A stretch of DNA of 10,420 bases, from assembly GCA_041498975.1 (NCBI GenBank), contig JBGQJI010000087.1:1-10420 (forward strand), read 5' to 3'. The notes under the pieces are model-generated. The model was not told the origin of the DNA. It ran no database searches and worked only from the letters and a program-made list of their open reading frames with translations. The position numbers and the translations under genes were made by a program. Positions 3-8,915 of the stretch are shown here, in pieces (position 1 is the first letter of the stretch; each line of letters starts with the position of its first letter). The DNA is from Candidatus Methylomirabilis sp. (GTDB taxonomy: Bacteria > Methylomirabilota > Methylomirabilia > Methylomirabilales > Methylomirabilaceae).

Positions 3-302
3 CGGGTCTCGGGCCGATTCAAGGGGAACGTCAACGTCAAAGGTGAACTGACGGTCGAGCCGGGTGCCTCGATCGACGGAGAGGTGAATGCGGATACCGT
101 CCTCGTCGGCGGCGAGGTGCGGGGGCAGATCGTCTCTTCATCCCGCGTCGAGCTGAAGGAGTCCGGCACCGTCATCGGCGACCTGAAGGCAGGGAGCCTG
201 ACAGTGGCGGCAGGATCGAGGATGCGGGGCAAGGTCGAATTCGGGTGGAAGGAAGGCGAGATCGAGGAGATGCATCCGGGCGAGGGCGGCCTTCCACGAT
301 GA
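3..302 (+). CDS. Bactofilin / polymer-forming cytoskeletal protein (CcmA family), 5'-truncated by the window edge
   Basis: Frame is open from base 3: RVSGRFKGNVNVKGELTVEPGASIDGEVNADTVLVGGEVRGQIVSSSRVELKESGTVIGDLKAGSLTVAAGSRMRGKVEFG. This is the typical bactofilin beta-helix pattern. The track start at 84 is internal. Confidence 0.9.
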   Translation, partial: RVSGRFKGNVNVKGELTVEPGASIDGEVNADTVLVGGEVRGQIVSSSRVELKESGTVIGDLKAGSLTVAAGSRMRGKVEFGWKEGEIEEMHPGEGGLPR

Positions 303-658
303 GCGGCCATGGGGTGATCGGCGAGGCGTGGAACTGCCCGCATTGCAGGGAGCGCATCCTTCGAAGCGCGGTAGCCTGCCCGGCTTGCCAGCGACACCTG
401 CATGTCGACGCCGTCACCCTCGCAAGACCGGCCCAGGCCACGGTATGCCCGCTCAGCGTTGACGGCACGATCCGGCATCCCGGGACCGAGACCCCTTGGG
501 AGTATACGGTTCTCATCGACATCCATGATGCACCGGGACAATTGCTGGCAAGACGAGTTGTTGGCGTAGGGGCGCTTCGGCCTGGCGAGACGCGCACATT
601 CACACTCCGTGTAGAGGTACTCGTGCCCGAGAAATCTACGCTGACCTCAGCCCCCTGA
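299..658 (+). CDS. Hypothetical protein with N-terminal zinc ribbon (CPHC...CPAC) and C-terminal beta-sandwich-like (FxLYD-like) region
   Basis: ATG at 299 overlaps the bactofilin stop (ATGA). Contains two CxxC motifs, then a beta-rich segment ending VGALRPGETRTFTLRVEV. 119 aa. Confidence 0.7.
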   Translation: MSGHGVIGEAWNCPHCRERILRSAVACPACQRHLHVDAVTLARPAQATVCPLSVDGTIRHPGTETPWEYTVLIDIHDAPGQLLARRVVGVGALRPGETRTFTLRVEVLVPEKSTLTSAP

Positions 659-1240: not shown

Positions 1241-1690
1241 ATGCGAGTTTCCACCAAAGGCGATTACGCAACGCGGGCGATGCAGGATCTCGCCTTCCAC
1301 TATGATCAAGGGCCGATTCAGATCGAGGACATCGCGAAGCGACAACATCTTCCCGTGCGGTATCTGGAACAGATCCTCTTGAGCCTGAAACGGGCGGGCT
1401 TCCTTGAAAGCAAGCGGGGGGTGAATGGGGGCTACTACCTCGCCAAGCATCCTCGGGAGATCACCGTCGGGGCCATCATCAGGACCATGGAGGGCCCGAT
1501 CATCCCTATCTTCTGTGTCGGCAGCGGGAAGCGGGAGATCTGTATCGAAGAGCCGCTCTGCAGCCTGCGGGATATCTGGAACGAAGTCCGCGATGCTGTG
1601 GTGAGGATTGTGGACCATACCACTCTCGAAGATCTGTGTCGGCAGATCAGAGTGAAGCGAGAACGGCAGGAGTTGACGTACCAGATCTAA
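1241..1690 (+). CDS. Rrf2-family transcriptional regulator (CymR/IscR-like)
   Basis: Motifs MRVSTKGDYATRAM, YLEQILLSLKRAGFLESKRGVNGGYYLAK and ITVGAIIRTMEGP. Cys triad C-x8-C-x5-C. AAGGA RBS upstream. Confidence 0.95.
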   Translation: MRVSTKGDYATRAMQDLAFHYDQGPIQIEDIAKRQHLPVRYLEQILLSLKRAGFLESKRGVNGGYYLAKHPREITVGAIIRTMEGPIIPIFCVGSGKREICIEEPLCSLRDIWNEVRDAVVRIVDHTTLEDLCRQIRVKRERQELTYQI

Positions 1691-1822: not shown

Positions 1823-2737
1823 ATGCCACGCTTGGTTCGAAACGCGCTCGAATTGATCGGCGATACCCCATTGGTGGAGTTGCAGCGGATTCCGCGGCGA
1901 GGCTCCGCCCGTATTCTTGGAAAGCTGGAGTCTCTGAATCCAGGGGGAAGCGTCAAAGATCGGATCGCCCTGGCAATGATCGAAGAGGCGGAGCGTAACG
2001 GGCGCCTGAAGCCGGGCGACACGATCGTCGAGCCGACCTCAGGGAACACCGGGATCGGCCTTGCGATGGTGGCGGCGATCAAAGGGTACCGGTTGATCCT
2101 GACGATGCCGGAAGACATGAGCCTGGAGCGCCGGACGCTGGTCGGTCGGTTCGGGGCCGAGCTGGTGCTCACTCCAGCAATCGAAGGGATGACTGGCGCG
2201 GTCTACGCGGCCCAGTCGCTGGTGGAAAAGCATCCCGATTACTTCATGCCTCAGCAGTTCCTGAACCCGGCCAACCCCGAGATCCACCGGCTGACCACAG
2301 CCAGGGAGATCCTCAAAGCGACTCAGGGGCAGATCGATGCGTTTGTGGCCGGCGTCGGGACCGGCGGGACCATCACGGGGGTAGGCGAGGTGTTGAAGAA
2401 AGAAGTTCCCGGCGTCCAGGTGATCGCAGTGGAACCAGCCAAGTCTCCCGTCTTACAGGGAGGCAGGGCCAGGCCCCACGGGATTCAGGGAATCGGCGCC
2501 AGCTTCGTCCCGGGAGTCCTGAACAGGGAGATGCTTGACGAGATCATCGCAGTCGAGGACGAGGATGCCTATCGGATGGCCGCTCGCCTGGCCAAAGAAG
2601 AAGGCCTCCTGGTGGGAATATCGGCGGGAGGAAACGTTGTTGCCTCGACGTTGGTGGCGGAACGGCTTGGAGCCGGGAAAGTCGTGGTCACAATCCTCCC
2701 CGACACGGGCGAGCGATACCTGACCGTCCCATTCTGA
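1823..2737 (+). CDS. cysK: Cysteine synthase A (O-acetylserine sulfhydrylase)
   Basis: Motifs LIGDTPLVEL, KLESLNPGGSVKDRIA (PLP lysine), EPTSGNTGIGLA, QQFLNPANPEIH, GVGTGGT, HGIQGIGASFVP and DTGERYL. Confidence 0.95.
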   Translation: MPRLVRNALELIGDTPLVELQRIPRRGSARILGKLESLNPGGSVKDRIALAMIEEAERNGRLKPGDTIVEPTSGNTGIGLAMVAAIKGYRLILTMPEDMSLERRTLVGRFGAELVLTPAIEGMTGAVYAAQSLVEKHPDYFMPQQFLNPANPEIHRLTTAREILKATQGQIDAFVAGVGTGGTITGVGEVLKKEVPGVQVIAVEPAKSPVLQGGRARPHGIQGIGASFVPGVLNREMLDEIIAVEDEDAYRMAARLAKEEGLLVGISAGGNVVASTLVAERLGAGKVVVTILPDTGERYLTVPF

Positions 2738-2819
2738 TTCGCGCGGGAGCCAGAGCATGAACGCCTATCGTGGTCTAGATTCTTTGAGGGGAGGGGAGCC
2801 AACGGGGGGTGAGGTGTCG

Positions 2820-3905
2820 ATGGCGATCCGTGTCTATATTCCGACTCCGTATCGGAAGCTGACCCGGAATCAGCCCGTCGTCGAGGGGCATGGGGACGAT
2901 CTGGTGGAACTCCTGGACGACCTGGAGAGGCGCTTTCCGGGCATCCGCGGCCATGTGCTCGACGAGGGTGGTGAGATTCACCGCCACCTAAACGTCTACG
3001 TGAACAGTGTGGCGCTGGAGGAGCTTGGAGGCAAGCGAACGCCACTGAAGGATGGTGACGAGGTGGCGGTGATCCCGGCCATGGCGGGCGGGGCCGTGCC
3101 CTTCAATGAAGAGCAGATCCGCCGCTACAGCCGGCATATCATCCTCCCCGAGGTGGGGGGCAAAGGTCAGCGCAAACTATTGAACAGTTCGATCCTCCTG
3201 GTCGGGGCAGGCGGCCTCGGCTCCCCTGCGGCCCTGTACCTCGCCGCCGCGGGTGTCGGTCGTCTCGGCATCATCGACGCCGATGTCGTGGACATGAGCA
3301 ATTTGCAACGCCAGATCCTCCACCACGTGGATGATGTGGGACGACCGAAGGTCCAGTCTGCGGTGGATTCGATCGGCCAGATCAACCCCGACGTGAAGGT
3401 TGAGCCGTTTCAGGCGATCCTCTCCTCGGAAAACGCCAAGGACATCATCGGCCAGTACGACCTTGTGGTCAACGGCTGTGACAACTTCCCGACCCGGTAC
3501 CTGGTCAACGACGTCTGTGTCTTTCTGAAGAAGCCGCTGGTAGACGGAAGTATCTTCAAGTTCGAAGGACAGGTGACGGTTTTTGTCCCTGGTCAGGGCT
3601 GCTACCGCTGCCTGTACCCTTCCCCTCCGCCTCCCGGACTTGTCCCGAGTTGTCAGGAGGCCGGCGTCCTGGGAGTGCTGTGCGGCATCGTCGGGAGCCT
3701 GCAAGCCATCGAGGCGATCAAGCTTCTGCTCGGGATCGGCGAGTCCCTGGCCGGGCGTCTGCTCTTCGTGGATGCATTTGGGATGGAGTTCCGGCAGGTC
3801 AAGGTGCGCCGCGACCCCGACTGCCCGGTGTGCGGAGACCGTCCGACCATCACCGATCCGATCGACTACTACGAATTCTGCGGGGTGCCTGCCACGGGTC
3901 ACTGA
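2820..3905 (+). CDS. moeB: Fusion of a CysO/MoaD/ThiS-like ubiquitin-fold sulfur carrier (aa 1-91, ending AMAGG) and a MoeB/ThiF-family E1 adenylyltransferase
   Basis: GAGGTG RBS before ATG 2820. Ubl: VYIPTPYRKLT...HLNVYVN...LKDGDEVAVIPAMAGG. E1: RYSRHIILPEVG, GAGGLGSP, SNLQRQILH, DNFPTRY, CYRC, CQEAGVLG and CPVC. No stop codon between the domains and no C-terminal rhodanese domain. Confidence 0.93.
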   Translation: MAIRVYIPTPYRKLTRNQPVVEGHGDDLVELLDDLERRFPGIRGHVLDEGGEIHRHLNVYVNSVALEELGGKRTPLKDGDEVAVIPAMAGGAVPFNEEQIRRYSRHIILPEVGGKGQRKLLNSSILLVGAGGLGSPAALYLAAAGVGRLGIIDADVVDMSNLQRQILHHVDDVGRPKVQSAVDSIGQINPDVKVEPFQAILSSENAKDIIGQYDLVVNGCDNFPTRYLVNDVCVFLKKPLVDGSIFKFEGQVTVFVPGQGCYRCLYPSPPPPGLVPSCQEAGVLGVLCGIVGSLQAIEAIKLLLGIGESLAGRLLFVDAFGMEFRQVKVRRDPDCPVCGDRPTITDPIDYYEFCGVPATGH

Positions 3906-3923: not shown

Positions 3924-4940
3924 GTGCTTCGAACGGTTGTCCTCGGAATGGTCGTTGGCGTGGCCTTCGGATACGCGCTTCAACGCGGCCGCTTCTGCAT
4001 GAACTCCACATTCCGCGATATCCTGGTGGCGCGGGACCTCACACTTCTCCGCGCGTACATCCTGGCCCTCCTGATCCAGATGGTCGGGGTCAGGGCGATG
4101 TCGGCATTGGGGTGGTTTGAGTTGGGCGTCACCCCCTTTTTCTGGGAGGCTACCCTGTTGGGCGGCTTCGTGTTCGGCCTGGGCATGGCCTTCTCGGGCG
4201 GGTGAGCGAGCGGCAGCACTTACCGGTCCGGTGAGGGGATGGTGGGATCGATCATCGCGTTGCTCGGGTTTGCGTTCGGAATCACCATGACGAGCGGTGG
4301 TGTGCTCGAGCCGGTCCAGACCGCCCTCCGGAGCTGGGTGGTCGAGATCGATGGGGAGTCGGCGACCCTGGATCGGCTCTTTGGAGTGAGCCCATGGCTC
4401 CTGGTCGCGGTGAGTGTGGCGGCCGGCGGATGGTGGTTGTGGAACAGCCCGGCAGGCGGATACCAGAAGGGGTGGAGCTGGACGAGAAGTGGGATCGCGA
4501 TCGGGCTGATCGCCACGTTCGCCTGGCCCATCTCGGCGCTCACCGGCAGGGATTACGGTCTCTCGATCACCGAGGGGATCCGGACGATTTTCGGGCTCCT
4601 GTTCACAGGCGAGGTCGATCTACTGACCTGGGGCAGCTTCATGTGGCTGGGGATCATCCCCGGTGCCTACCTGGCGGCGCGGTCGCACGGGGAATTCGCT
4701 TGGCGCGCGCCCGGCGCGCAGCGCCTCCTCCAGGCCCTCGGGGGCGGTCTCCTGATGGGGGTGGGGGCCGGGATCGCCGGGGGATGCAATATCGGGCATG
4801 GCCTGACTGGGGTCCCGCTCTTTGGCTTAAGCAGCCTGACGGCCACATTCAGCATCGTCCTGGGGGTCTGGACCGGAGCATATATCCTCTTCGGGAGCGT
4901 CGCTTTTGAGCGGAGGGTCAGAAGTGTCCAACGCGCGTAG
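3924..4940 (+). CDS. yeeE: YeeE/YedE (TsuA-like) thiosulfate/sulfur-compound transporter, predicted selenoprotein (UGA 4203-4205 = Sec94; 338 aa)
   Basis: Track ORFs 3924..4205 and 4239..4940 are in the same frame. Readthrough gives FGLGMAFSGG-U-ASGSTYRSGEG, matching the family GGCASG motif. The other conserved Cys motifs, RGRFC (C25) and AGGCNIGH (C288), are intact. Multiple TM helices; SECIS-like hairpin downstream of the UGA. Confidence 0.88.
4219..4235 (+). promoter_or_regulatory. Putative bacterial SECIS element
   Basis: CTTACC-GGTCC-GGTGAG hairpin (6-7 bp stem with one G-U pair). The GGUC-containing apical loop begins about 20 nt after the in-frame UGA. Confidence 0.75.
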
Positions 4941-5848: not shown

Positions 5849-6076
5849 ATGGCGCAGTATTCGCTCGACGTGACCGGGGAGATTTGCCCCTATCCTTTGA
5901 TCATGACCAGGAAAGAGTTGGGGAAGCTGCAGCCGGGTGATCAACTGGTCGTGACAGTCGATTACGCAAAATCGGCGGAGGACATCCCCAGGTGGGCGAA
6001 GGAGGATGGCCACACCGTCCTGGCGGTTCGCGAGATGGGCGGGACACAGTGGGAAATCCTGCTGGAAAAGGGGTAA
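5849..6076 (+). CDS. TusA/SirA-family sulfur carrier (YeeD/TsuB-like), CPYP motif
   Basis: ATG 5849 after GGGGAG. Sequence MAQYSLDVTGEICPYPLIMTRKELGKLQPGDQLVVTVD...DIPRWAKEDGH, 75 aa. The track's 5516 start is an over-extension. Confidence 0.92.
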   Translation: MAQYSLDVTGEICPYPLIMTRKELGKLQPGDQLVVTVDYAKSAEDIPRWAKEDGHTVLAVREMGGTQWEILLEKG

Positions 6077-7501: not shown

Positions 7502-8437
7502 ATGAAATCAGCCGATATTCTCGATGCCATCGGTAAGACGCCGCTGGTGGAGCTTACGCGGATCAGTCCCAAGAAAGGGGTCAGGATCTTCGCCAAGATG
7601 GAGGGAAACAACCCCACCGGGAGCCTGAAGGATCGGATCGCGAAGTACATGATCGAGCAGGCTGAACGGAGCGGCGAGCTGACGAAGGACAAGACGATCT
7701 TGGAGCCGACAAGCGGCAACACCGGCATCGCCCTGGCCATGATCGGGCGAAGGAAAGGGTATAAGGTCAAGGTCGTGATCCCGGAGAACGCCACACCGGA
7801 GCGGCGCCAACTCCTGGAGATCTTCGGCGCCGAGATGATCTACTCTGATGGGACGAAAGGGAGCAACGGCGCCATCGAGCTGGCTCAGAGGCTGGTCGCC
7901 CAGGATGCATCCCTCTACATGCCATACCAGTACGGCAATCCCGCCAACCCCCTCGCCCACTATGAGACGACCGGTGTGGAGATCTTGAACGACCTGCCGG
8001 AAATCGACGTCTTCGTGGCCGGCCTTGGCACAGGCGGAACCCTGATGGGTGTGGGCCGACGGCTGAAAGAAGTCAATCCCAAGACCAAGGTCATCGCTGT
8101 CGAGCCTCATCCCGGCGATCTGGTCCAGGGGCTTCGCAGCCTGGAAGAAGGTTTCATTCCGCCCATCCTCGACACAAGCCTGCTGGACGGAAAGATCATG
8201 GTTGACTCCCGCTGCGCCTTTGCCGCCACCCGGGACCTGACCAATAAGGAAGGGATCTTCGCAGGGGTCTCCTCGGGGGCTGTGGTTCATGTCGCCATCC
8301 GGATGGCGCACCGGCTGGAGGAGGGAAACATCGTCGTCATCCTCTGTGATGGCGGATGGAAGTACGTGAGCCTTGGCGTATGGCACAAGGAGTTTCCGGA
8401 GCTCGGTGAAAATATGTACAGCCATCTCTGGTGGTAG
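7502..8437 (+). CDS. cysM: CysM-type PLP-dependent cysteine synthase (probably sulfur-carrier-dependent O-phosphoserine sulfhydrylase)
   Basis: Motifs NNPTGSLKDRIA, EPTSGNTGI, YQYGNPANPLAHYETTG, GLGTGGTLMG, GLRSLEEGFIP and DGGWKY, with C-terminal HLWW. These resemble actinobacterial CysM. Neighbours are a CysO-like carrier, an E1 and Mec. Confidence 0.88.
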   Translation: MKSADILDAIGKTPLVELTRISPKKGVRIFAKMEGNNPTGSLKDRIAKYMIEQAERSGELTKDKTILEPTSGNTGIALAMIGRRKGYKVKVVIPENATPERRQLLEIFGAEMIYSDGTKGSNGAIELAQRLVAQDASLYMPYQYGNPANPLAHYETTGVEILNDLPEIDVFVAGLGTGGTLMGVGRRLKEVNPKTKVIAVEPHPGDLVQGLRSLEEGFIPPILDTSLLDGKIMVDSRCAFAATRDLTNKEGIFAGVSSGAVVHVAIRMAHRLEEGNIVVILCDGGWKYVSLGVWHKEFPELGENMYSHLWW

Positions 8438-8438
8438 G

Positions 8439-8915
8439 ATGGACCTTACTCAGGACGCCTTGAAAGAGATCTTCGCCCACGCCGAGGAGGGCTACCCCGA
8501 CGAAGTCTGCGGGATCGTGCTCGGGAAGGGGAGCGATCCGAACACGCATCTGGTCCGCCGATGCGCCAATCTCGCGAACCAGCATCATCAGGAAGATCCG
8601 GTTCGCTTTCCCAGAGATGCCAGGACCGCGTATGTCATGGACCCTCAGGACCTTCTGCGCATCCAGCGCGAAGCCGATACCAAGGGGCTTGACTTCCTTG
8701 TCATCTATCATTCCCACACGGATCATGAGGCATACTTCTCCAAGACCGACAAAGAGCTGGCGCTGTTCGATGGGGAGCCGATGTGGCCTCATGCGCGGTA
8801 CATGGTGATTTCTGTCAAGGACCATAATGTATCTTATTATAAGGTATTTAGATGGGATTCTCTACTAAACGACTTTATAGATGAGCCGTCCTCCGTTTTG
8901 AAGGCAAGCCGGTAG
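8439..8915 (+). CDS. mec: JAMM/MPN+ (M67) metalloprotease, Mec-like CysO-cysteine peptidase
   Basis: ATG 8439 lies one base after the cysM stop. Motifs HAEEGYPDEVCG and YHSHTDHEAYFSKTD (E...HxH-x7-S-x2-D). 158 aa. Confidence 0.92.
   Translation: MDLTQDALKEIFAHAEEGYPDEVCGIVLGKGSDPNTHLVRRCANLANQHHQEDPVRFPRDARTAYVMDPQDLLRIQREADTKGLDFLVIYHSHTDHEAYFSKTDKELALFDGEPMWPHARYMVISVKDHNVSYYKVFRWDSLLNDFIDEPSSVLKASR

What the first reader, a model, noticed from the sequence alone, without database searches (positions are those of the whole stretch)
2820..3905. Ubiquitin-like sulfur carrier encoded as a polyprotein with its own E1; the C-terminal GG is buried
Seen: the Ubl domain ends ...IPAMAGG at 3092 and continues directly into AVPFNEEQIRRYSRH (MoeB) with no stop. 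No free-standing cysO/thiS/moaD gene is in the window. Established: CysO/ThiS/MoaD need a free C-terminal Gly-Gly for adenylation and thiocarboxylation, and JAMM proteases cleave after GG. Inference: the operon's JAMM protease (8439-8915) first cuts the Ubl-E1 precursor, like eukaryotic ubiquitin-fusion processing, and then releases Cys from carrier-Cys adducts. This would give 1:1 carrier:E1 synthesis. Ubl-E1 fusions are probably not unique to this organism.
Basis: partly seen in the sequence, partly recalled or inferred. Interest (0 to 1): 0.72.

Follow-up and report, generated by a model that had tools for sequence, protein, structure and literature searches.

The report
Sulfur carrier fused to its activator
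One gene joins a small ubiquitin-like sulfur-carrier domain, at its Gly-Gly end, to the enzyme that activates such carriers, and a neighbouring protease likely cuts them apart; this is a widespread variation on known biology, and whether the freed domain is the carrier for the operon's cysteine synthase is untested and doubtful.

Summary
The fusion is real: a CysO-family ubiquitin-like domain runs through Gly-Gly (3087-3092) into a MoeB-type E1 with no stop. Independent contigs agree, and Gly-Gly is invariant in 119 of 119 homologs. The gene probably starts at 2757, not 2820. Cleavage by a JAMM protease is likely but untested: in GTDB loci, 31 of 32 fusions have a JAMM within 3 kb, against 2 of 21 E1s without an adjacent carrier. 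(1) This is not a private 1:1 pair. It is the only ThiF-family E1 in four near-complete relatives, each with four free carriers, all capped after Gly-Gly. (2) The fused domain may not be CysM's carrier. It forms its own clade and lacks a motif kept by free CysO-type carriers. In about half of the related CysM operons it coexists with a dedicated free CysO, and this genome has two free CysO-like genes elsewhere. Ubl-E1 fusions were noted in 2006 and 2010, and JAMM cleavage is shown for MoaD-MoaE fusions. This scan reported the same fusion on other DNA. New variant of a known kind; modest interest.

The parts
2757..3905 (+). Ubl-E1 fusion gene; probable start ATG 2757 (382 aa), alternative start ATG 2820 (361 aa)
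   Evidence: ORF; upstream ATG conserved in 13 of 13 same-genus loci, 2820-equivalent codon not a start in 3 of 13
2820..3092 (+). CysO-family beta-grasp (Ubl) domain, a diverged fusion-specific clade
   Evidence: PF02597; best PDB hits 4N6E_B and 3DWG_C; beta-grasp order of elements in the model; own clade of 21 rows, SH-aLRT 95
3087..3092 (+). Internal Gly-Gly, predicted JAMM cut site (GG|A)
   Evidence: Invariant in 119 of 119 homologs with variable flanks, and synonymous codons vary across 50 fused loci; GG kept in 32 of 32 fused GTDB loci
3093..3905 (+). MoeB/ThiF-type E1 adenylyltransferase with no rhodanese domain; the only MoeB-type E1 found in the genome
   Evidence: PF00899; Foldseek top hit 1JW9_B MoeB; GxGGLG, R105, D153, R164, K177, D221, two CxxC and C278 invariant in 28 aligned homologs; family search
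8439..8915 (+). Mec-type JAMM/MPN+ metalloprotease, candidate maturase
   Evidence: PF14464; the Glu, HxH, Ser and Asp motif residues invariant in 16 aligned JAMMs
7502..8437 (+). Carrier-dependent CysM-type cysteine synthase (predicted O-phosphoserine sulfhydrylase)
   Evidence: Best PDB hit 3DWG_A (292 bits vs at most 245 for other synthases); Arg of the LR(S/N) loop and C-terminal HLWW/QLWA kept
1823..2737 (+). CysK (O-acetylserine route), directly upstream of the fusion
   Evidence: TIGR01139 above cut-off; CysE present in 5 of 5 genomes searched
1241..1690 (+). Rrf2-family (CymR-like) regulator heading the cluster
   Evidence: PF02082, TIGR00738
3924..4940 (+). YeeE/TsuA-family transporter with in-frame TGA at 4203-4205 (predicted selenocysteine)
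   Evidence: PF04143 continues across the TGA; Cys at that site in G008; tRNA-Sec and SelB in the genome
4906..5835 (+). Two-domain rhodanese, candidate persulfide donor
   Evidence: PF00581; donor role inferred
5849..6076 (+). TusA/YeeD-like protein
   Evidence: PF01206
6135..7106 (+). YVTN-type beta-propeller protein
   Evidence: TIGR02276, PF21783
7134..7379 (+). Second TusA-like protein
   Evidence: PF01206
9013..10420 (+). Sulfite/nitrite reductase (runs off the window)
   Evidence: PF01077, PF03460

Best explanation
The gene encodes a CysO-family ubiquitin-like domain joined through Gly-Gly to the only MoeB-type E1 found in the genome, and the product is likely a precursor that a JAMM protease, most likely the operon's Mec-type one, cuts after Gly-Gly. 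Shown: the in-frame fusion, the invariant Gly-Gly, intact E1 and JAMM motifs, the single E1, and capped ends on the other carriers. Inferred: the same JAMM likely trims the 1-41-residue caps off MoaD, ThiS and the ThrC-linked carrier, so the E1 is just the longest of these caps. The freed E1 likely adenylates all carriers of the cell, as MoeZR does for several in mycobacteria. Sulfur would come from the operon's rhodanese/TusA proteins or from sulfide. The freed domain is likely thiocarboxylated. Whether CysM then takes sulfur from it or from a free CysO-like carrier is open (about 0.4 for the fused one).
For: Gly-Gly invariant in 119 of 119 homologs while positions 88, 89 and 92-94 vary, with synonymous codon variation. 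Of 80 GTDB loci: fused 32, all with GG, and 31 of 32 with a JAMM within 3 kb; adjacent but separate carrier 19 of 27 (capped 17 of 21, uncapped 2 of 6); E1 without an adjacent carrier 2 of 21. In the second architecture (Ubl-E1-rhodanese), fused and split forms are interleaved on both trees (E1 tree: 19 changes, at least 6 forced by starred branches; Ubl tree), as expected if cleavage makes fusion nearly neutral. In 4 near-complete same-genus genomes: one ThiF-family gene each, five ThiS-family domains each, and 20 of 20 continue past Gly-Gly, so a protease is needed in any case. Precedents, passages read: HvJAMM1 cuts SAMP1-MoaE exactly after the Gly (PMC4443979); DR0402 cuts MoaD-MoaE (PMC8832034); MoaX must be cut at Gly82 (PMC4326299); one MoeZR serves MoaD and CysO (PMC3227635).
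Against: No cleavage, binding or activity was measured. JAMM is expected beside CysM/MetM anyway to release the amino acid, so co-occurrence does not single out precursor processing. A second JAMM-family gene with an HxH...S..D motif lies elsewhere in 5 of 5 genomes. The fused domain lacks the N-[DE]-E-D-[IV]-R-[FY] motif (0 of 120 proteins) that 12 of 12 CysM-adjacent and 15 of 15 ThrC-adjacent free carriers have. The spacer from GG to RYSRH is fixed at 10 residues in 114 of 119 homologs, which could equally reflect a structural role of the uncut protein.
Confidence: 0.65

Rival explanations
1. The fusion is cut, but the freed domain is not CysM's carrier. It is a diverged paralog with another acceptor or a regulatory role, and CysM uses a free CysO-family carrier (the ThrC-linked one on C50, or the orphan on C241). 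This concerns the downstream step only and is compatible with cleavage.
For: The fused domains form their own clade, apart from CysM-adjacent free carriers (SH-aLRT 95 and 97). The motif is lost in 0 of 120 fused vs kept in 12 of 12 and 15 of 15 free carriers and in solved CysO. Of 21 loci with a CysM-type gene, 9 have both the fusion and a free carrier right before cysM (10 with L050, whose fusion is cut by a contig end), 7 have the fusion only, 1 clearly has the free carrier only, and L068 has E1 + cysM with no carrier within 10 kb. G019 lost the fused domain and kept the free one. Scores against 3DWG_C: fused 58 bits, C50 carrier 79, free CysO of G021 83.
Against: Where no free CysO sits before cysM (this genus and families f3, f7, part of f6), the fusion is present in all 7 such NC10 loci; in G027 the free copy is frameshifted while the fusion is intact. 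That pattern fits redundancy. The C241-type gene was found in only 5 of 20 genus genomes and not in the closed one. What the lost motif binds is unknown; the structure paper was not held.
Confidence: 0.4
2. The protein is never cut. The Ubl is a permanent structural or adaptor domain of the E1, as proposed for the N-terminal Ubl of Campylobacter-type ThiF.
For: Fixed spacer length; motif loss; Iyer et al. 2006 suggest fused Ubls of ThiF have a role different from free ThiS (PMC1779556).
Against: Both glycines are invariant in all fused forms of two separate architectures, which a plain linker would not need. The linker is 2-32 residues in the wider set. Capped carriers in the same cells already demand a GG-specific protease.
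Confidence: 0.15
3. The cut is made by the second JAMM-family protein (G000 C28:6775-7305, beside DUF2400) or another protease, and the operon JAMM only releases cysteine.
For: Second PF14464/PF01398 protein with a metal motif in 5 of 5 genomes.
Against: It is very distant from the operon JAMM (E 0.04) and unlinked to any carrier, while Mec-type JAMMs lie within 3 kb of 31 of 32 fusions.
Confidence: 0.1
4. Artefact: a lost stop codon, an assembly error, or an internal start that yields two proteins.
For: A GTG lies two codons after the Gly-Gly (direct from the sequence).
Against: Independent contigs match; 897 homologs of 198-632 aa match the Ubl-plus-junction region; that GTG position is Val in only 43 of 119 homologs; an internal start would not give the Ubl a free end.
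Confidence: 0.01

Closest known systems
JAMM-processed Ubl fusions: MoaD-MoaE of Deinococcus (DR0402), SAMP1-MoaE/HvJAMM1, MoaX (PMC8832034, PMC4443979, PMC4326299; passages read)
   Same: Carrier domain first, Gly-Gly at the domain boundary, partner enzyme behind it, JAMM encoded in the genome.
   Different: The partner is the activating E1, not the sulfur acceptor; cleavage is untested here.
CysO / CysM / Mec / MoeZR thiocarboxylate cysteine pathway (PMC3227635, passages read; PDB 3DWG)
   Same: CysM-type synthase next to a Mec-type JAMM, a CysO-family Ubl, and one E1 shared among carriers.
   Different: The carrier is fused to the E1; the E1 has no rhodanese domain (a separate rhodanese and two TusA genes are in the operon); the fused Ubl lacks the CysO motif; CysK and CysE are present too.
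Ubl-ThiF / Ubl-E1 fusions and 'ThiS/MoaD + E1 + JAB + cysteine synthase' operons of Iyer et al. 2006 (PMC1779556, passages) and the Ubl-E1 fusions of Makarova & Koonin 2010 (PMC2948915, section 3.3)
   Same: The domain architecture is catalogued; a Pelobacter Ubl-ThiF fusion occurs with cysteine synthase; JAB cleavage of fused ThiS/MoaD was predicted.
   Different: In the passages read, no NC10/Chloroflexota clade, no test of cleavage, and no mention that the fused Ubl coexists with a dedicated free CysO.
MetO / MetM / Mec / MoeZ homocysteine route of Streptomyces (table in PMC13759103, passage read)
   Same: A ThrC-like gene plus free carrier lies near this operon in relatives and on C50 here; the fused Ubl is closer to that class (43% mean identity) than to CysM-adjacent carriers (36%).
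   Different: That carrier is free-standing; its function in these genomes was not tested.

Membership tests
ThiS/MoaD/CysO sulfur carriers | beta-grasp domain of about 90 aa | tested here: met
   PF02597 49 bits over cut-off 22.5; PDB hits 4N6E_B, 3DWG_C; model elements
ThiS/MoaD/CysO sulfur carriers | free C-terminal Gly-Gly | tested here: not met
   Gly-Gly is present but internal as encoded; it would be met only after cleavage
ThiS/MoaD/CysO sulfur carriers | E1-dependent thiocarboxylation (+16 Da) | not testable with these tools
   needs biochemistry
CysO proper (carrier of CysM) | R-F-x-N...N-[DE]-E-D-[IV]-R-[FY] signature shared by solved CysO and free CysM-adjacent carriers (motif drawn here from alignments, not a curated one) | tested here: not met
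   0 of 120 fused homologs vs 12 of 12 and 15 of 15 free carriers
CysO proper (carrier of CysM) | orthology with carriers encoded next to cysM | tested here: not met
   separate clades in a quick IQ-TREE tree of 104 rows x 91 columns; deep forks unresolved
CysO proper (carrier of CysM) | functional use by CysM | tested here: inconclusive
   gene-context evidence points both ways
MoeB/ThiF E1 (PF00899) | nucleotide-binding GxGxxG, catalytic Arg/Lys/Asp, two CxxC zinc sites, loop Cys | tested here: met
   invariant in 28 of 28 aligned; Foldseek to 1JW9/1ZUD; residue roles recalled from MoeB/ThiF
MoeZR/MoeBR | fused rhodanese domain | tested here: not met
   protein ends 24 residues after PF00899; no PF00581 in it
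JAMM/MPN+ (Mec-type) protease, gene 8439-8915 | E-x(n)-H-x-H-x7-S-x2-D metal site | tested here: met
   DEVCG...YHSHTDHEAYFSKTD; invariant columns
JAMM-processed linear Ubl fusions (MoaX / MoaD-MoaE type) | conserved Gly-Gly at the domain boundary plus a JAMM in the genome | tested here: met
JAMM-processed linear Ubl fusions (MoaX / MoaD-MoaE type) | demonstrated cleavage after Gly-Gly | not testable with these tools
   needs biochemistry or proteomics
Carrier-dependent CysM, gene 7502-8437 | closest to 3DWG-type CysM, phosphate-binding Arg and C-terminal Trp tail | tested here: met
   the role of these residues is recalled; one recalled interface Arg is His here

The most novel reading that the evidence does not exclude
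The fused domain is a specialised, removable cap on the cell's only E1. It has lost the surface that free CysO/MetO carriers keep, but has kept the Gly-Gly and a fixed 10-residue spacer to the E1's catalytic Arg. It would hold the E1 in a zymogen state, or become a protein modifier once freed, so that one JAMM switches on all thiocarboxylate chemistry (Moco, thiamine, cysteine, homocysteine) in these bacteria.
Probability: 0.15. Interest if true: 0.65.

Novelty: new variant of a known kind. Interest (0 to 1): 0.33.

Why it matters
If cleavage is confirmed, it extends JAMM processing of linear Ubl fusions from MoaD-MoaE to carrier-E1 precursors. It would also make one JAMM a hub that must mature every sulfur carrier in these NC10-type bacteria (20 of 20 carriers in four near-complete genomes continue past Gly-Gly). 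That is a tidy, cheap test rather than a surprise. The more interesting open point is what the fusion-specific Ubl clade does where a dedicated CysO exists beside it. Practically, such genes are annotated simply as MoeB, so the carrier domain is missed.

Tried and rejected
AlphaFold model of the fusion: junction 89-106 below pLDDT 50, uninformative on accessibility. Internal restart after Gly-Gly: rejected. Sequencing error at the junction: rejected. TtuA/NcsA-type tRNA thiolase as the acceptor of the fused Ubl: TIGR00269 had no match over cut-off in 5 of 5 genomes, one weak match in G063; not supported. Promoter/terminator scan: no terminator on the + strand, counts near chance, so no evidence on co-transcription. 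The careful Ubl tree did not finish; the quick tree was used. Search of 50%-identity representatives: about 20 of the best 150 had an N-terminal Ubl, nearly all ending GG, so it only repeated the picture. Literature searches listed no paper testing cleavage of a Ubl-E1 fusion; most subscription papers are not held, the CysO-CysM structure paper and a 2009 E1 survey were not held, and no supplements were read, so their tables may already list this clade. A word search of earlier findings for fusion plus separate CysO found nothing.

Full report
Observation. Window 2820-3905 (+) is one open frame of 361 aa. A ThiS/MoaD-family domain (PF02597, residues 5-91) ends IPAMAGG at 3092 and continues into a ThiF-family E1 (PF00899, 103-337). 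Residue A92 aligns with residue 1 of E. coli MoeB (query 96 = chain 5 of 1JW9), so there is essentially no linker. Contigs from 3 of 4 laid public runs cross the junction unchanged. The start is probably ATG 2757: 13 of 13 same-genus loci printed have an ATG exactly 63 nt upstream behind a purine-rich site, and 3 of them have ACG or GCG at the 2820-equivalent codon. This window also has a GAGGTG site before 2820, so both starts may be used.

Context. The co-directional cluster is rrf2, cysK, fusion, yeeE, rhodanese, tusA, beta-propeller, tusA, cysM, JAMM, sulfite/nitrite reductase. Named close homologs are NC10 / Ca. Methylomirabilis proteins annotated simply as MoeB. The 7502-8437 protein is closest to carrier-dependent CysM (3DWG, 292 bits vs at most 245 for others). 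The JAMM has an intact metal motif. The E1 keeps its nucleotide-binding, zinc and loop-cysteine residues in 28 of 28 aligned homologs (residue roles recalled) and folds like MoeB/ThiF.

Spread and conservation. A search with residues 1-112 gave 897 proteins of 198-632 aa; the best 120 all carry both domains. Among the 119 that are not the window's own protein, G90 and G91 are invariant, whereas M88, A89, A92, V93 and P94 vary, and the Gly codons vary synonymously across 50 fused loci. The full fusion is in 17 of 18 same-genus genomes and 8 of 12 same-order genomes. In a phylum draw it is typical of the order but full-length in only 1 of 88 genomes of the other families of the class. 27 of these 32 have a rhodanese-sized tail and mostly longer linkers, a second architecture.

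Case for cleavage (inference). A JAMM lies within 3 kb of 31 of 32 fusions, 17 of 21 adjacent capped carriers, 2 of 6 adjacent uncapped carriers, and 2 of 21 E1s without an adjacent carrier. Kin are not independent, and JAMM is also needed for product release, so this is suggestive only. In the rhodanese-tailed group, fused and split forms alternate across the E1 tree (19 changes, at least 6 forced). In four near-complete same-genus genomes all 20 ThiS-family domains continue past Gly-Gly: MoaD +3, ThiS +2, the ThrC-linked carrier +1, another MoaD-like +12 to +41, and the fusion +270. In this genome 5 of 8 examined do. JAMM cleavage right after Gly-Gly of linear Ubl-MoaE fusions is published (PMC4443979, PMC8832034; passages), as is the need to cut MoaX (PMC4326299). 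Iyer et al. 2006 noted Ubl-ThiF fusions and predicted JAB cleavage of fused ThiS/MoaD (PMC1779556; passages). Makarova and Koonin 2010 list Ubl-E1 fusions shared by Thaumarchaeota and bacteria (PMC2948915, section 3.3).

Against the 1:1 reading. The fusion is the only PF00899 gene in 4 of 4 near-complete relatives, one of them closed. This genome has two further, distant ThiF-like genes in unrelated contexts. The E1 therefore likely serves MoaD, ThiS and the other carriers in trans, like MoeZR (PMC3227635). Co-translation gives one carrier per E1, but the E1 is not private to it.

Against 'this is CysM's CysO'. Fused domains of NC10 and Chloroflexota form their own clade (21 rows, SH-aLRT 95), apart from free carriers before cysM (11 rows, 97) and a ThrC-linked clade (10 rows, 97); the tree is a quick one on 91 columns. 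The motif N-[DE]-E-D-[IV]-R-[FY], present in solved CysO, is in 12 of 12 CysM-adjacent and 15 of 15 ThrC-adjacent carriers but in 0 of 120 fused homologs; the rhodanese-tailed fusions mostly keep it (15 of 27). Of 21 loci with a CysM-type gene, the script counted 9 with fusion plus free carrier, 7 with fusion only, 3 with free carrier only and 2 with neither. L050 belongs with 'both' (fusion cut by a contig end), and L052 and L091 are undetermined at contig ends. L068 shows E1 + cysM with no carrier nearby. This genome encodes free CysO-family carriers on C50 (after a ThrC-like gene, ends GG) and C241 (ends GG-WRS). What the lost motif binds I could not look up. I put the fused domain as CysM's carrier at about 0.4. 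A second JAMM-family gene beside DUF2400 is conserved in 5 of 5 genomes and is a minor rival as the protease.

Verdict. It works like JAMM-processed MoaD-MoaE fusions, inside a CysO/CysM/Mec-type operon. It is not a member of CysO proper by motif or tree, nor of MoeZR. The architecture is catalogued, and this scan reported it on other genomes. My literature searches listed no test of Ubl-E1 cleavage. New variant of a known kind; interest 0.33.

Noticed in passing
window 4203-4205 (YeeE gene 3924-4940): In-frame TGA in GG*ASG at the conserved Cys; TGA in five other same-genus genomes printed, Cys in G008; a hairpin follows (-27.8 kcal/mol over 70 nt, no shuffle control); tRNA-Sec and SelB are in the genome. 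Matches the listed GUxSG YeeE selenoprotein family (PMC13188914 table)..
   Followed up: yes
L133-L136, L138, L151, L152 (mostly other families of the same class): Rhodanese-E1 proteins carry an in-frame TGA exactly at the E1 loop cysteine (C278 here) in 7 of 7 TGA-bearing loci fetched; most class-level matches show one TGA. Predicted selenocysteine MoeB, a listed family, here nearly lineage-wide; it suggests this residue is catalytically used..
   Followed up: partly
L075, L081, L083: ThrC-linked carrier continues past Gly-Gly into an 80-residue tail that looks like a NIL domain (label recalled, not scanned), next to E1, cysteine synthase and JAMM: another likely JAMM-processed fusion..
   Followed up: no
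G000 C43 ~12924-12936; L013, L014, L016, L017: The Gly-Gly codons of moaD (GGAGG) double as the ribosome-binding site of the overlapping moaE, which forces a 3-residue cap on MoaD in all five genomes looked at..
   Followed up: partly
G000 C28:6775-7305 (L179): Second, divergent JAMM-family gene upstream of DUF2400, conserved in 5 of 5 genomes; substrate unknown..
   Followed up: partly
G000 C241:1744-2025 (L153-L157): Orphan capped CysO-like carrier found in 5 of 20 genus genomes, with no sulfur gene recognised next to it..
   Followed up: partly
window 2757-2819: Genus-specific 21-residue N-terminal extension, fixed in length but variable in sequence..
   Followed up: partly
G000 C22 ~11580-15562 and C229 450-2302: Two divergent ThiF-like genes in other contexts (one with a JAB-like gene and an AAA ATPase), resembling prokaryotic E1/E2/JAB conjugation operons..
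   Followed up: no
window 299-658: 119-aa ORF with two CxxC motifs and no Pfam or NCBIfam match, after a bactofilin gene..
   Followed up: no
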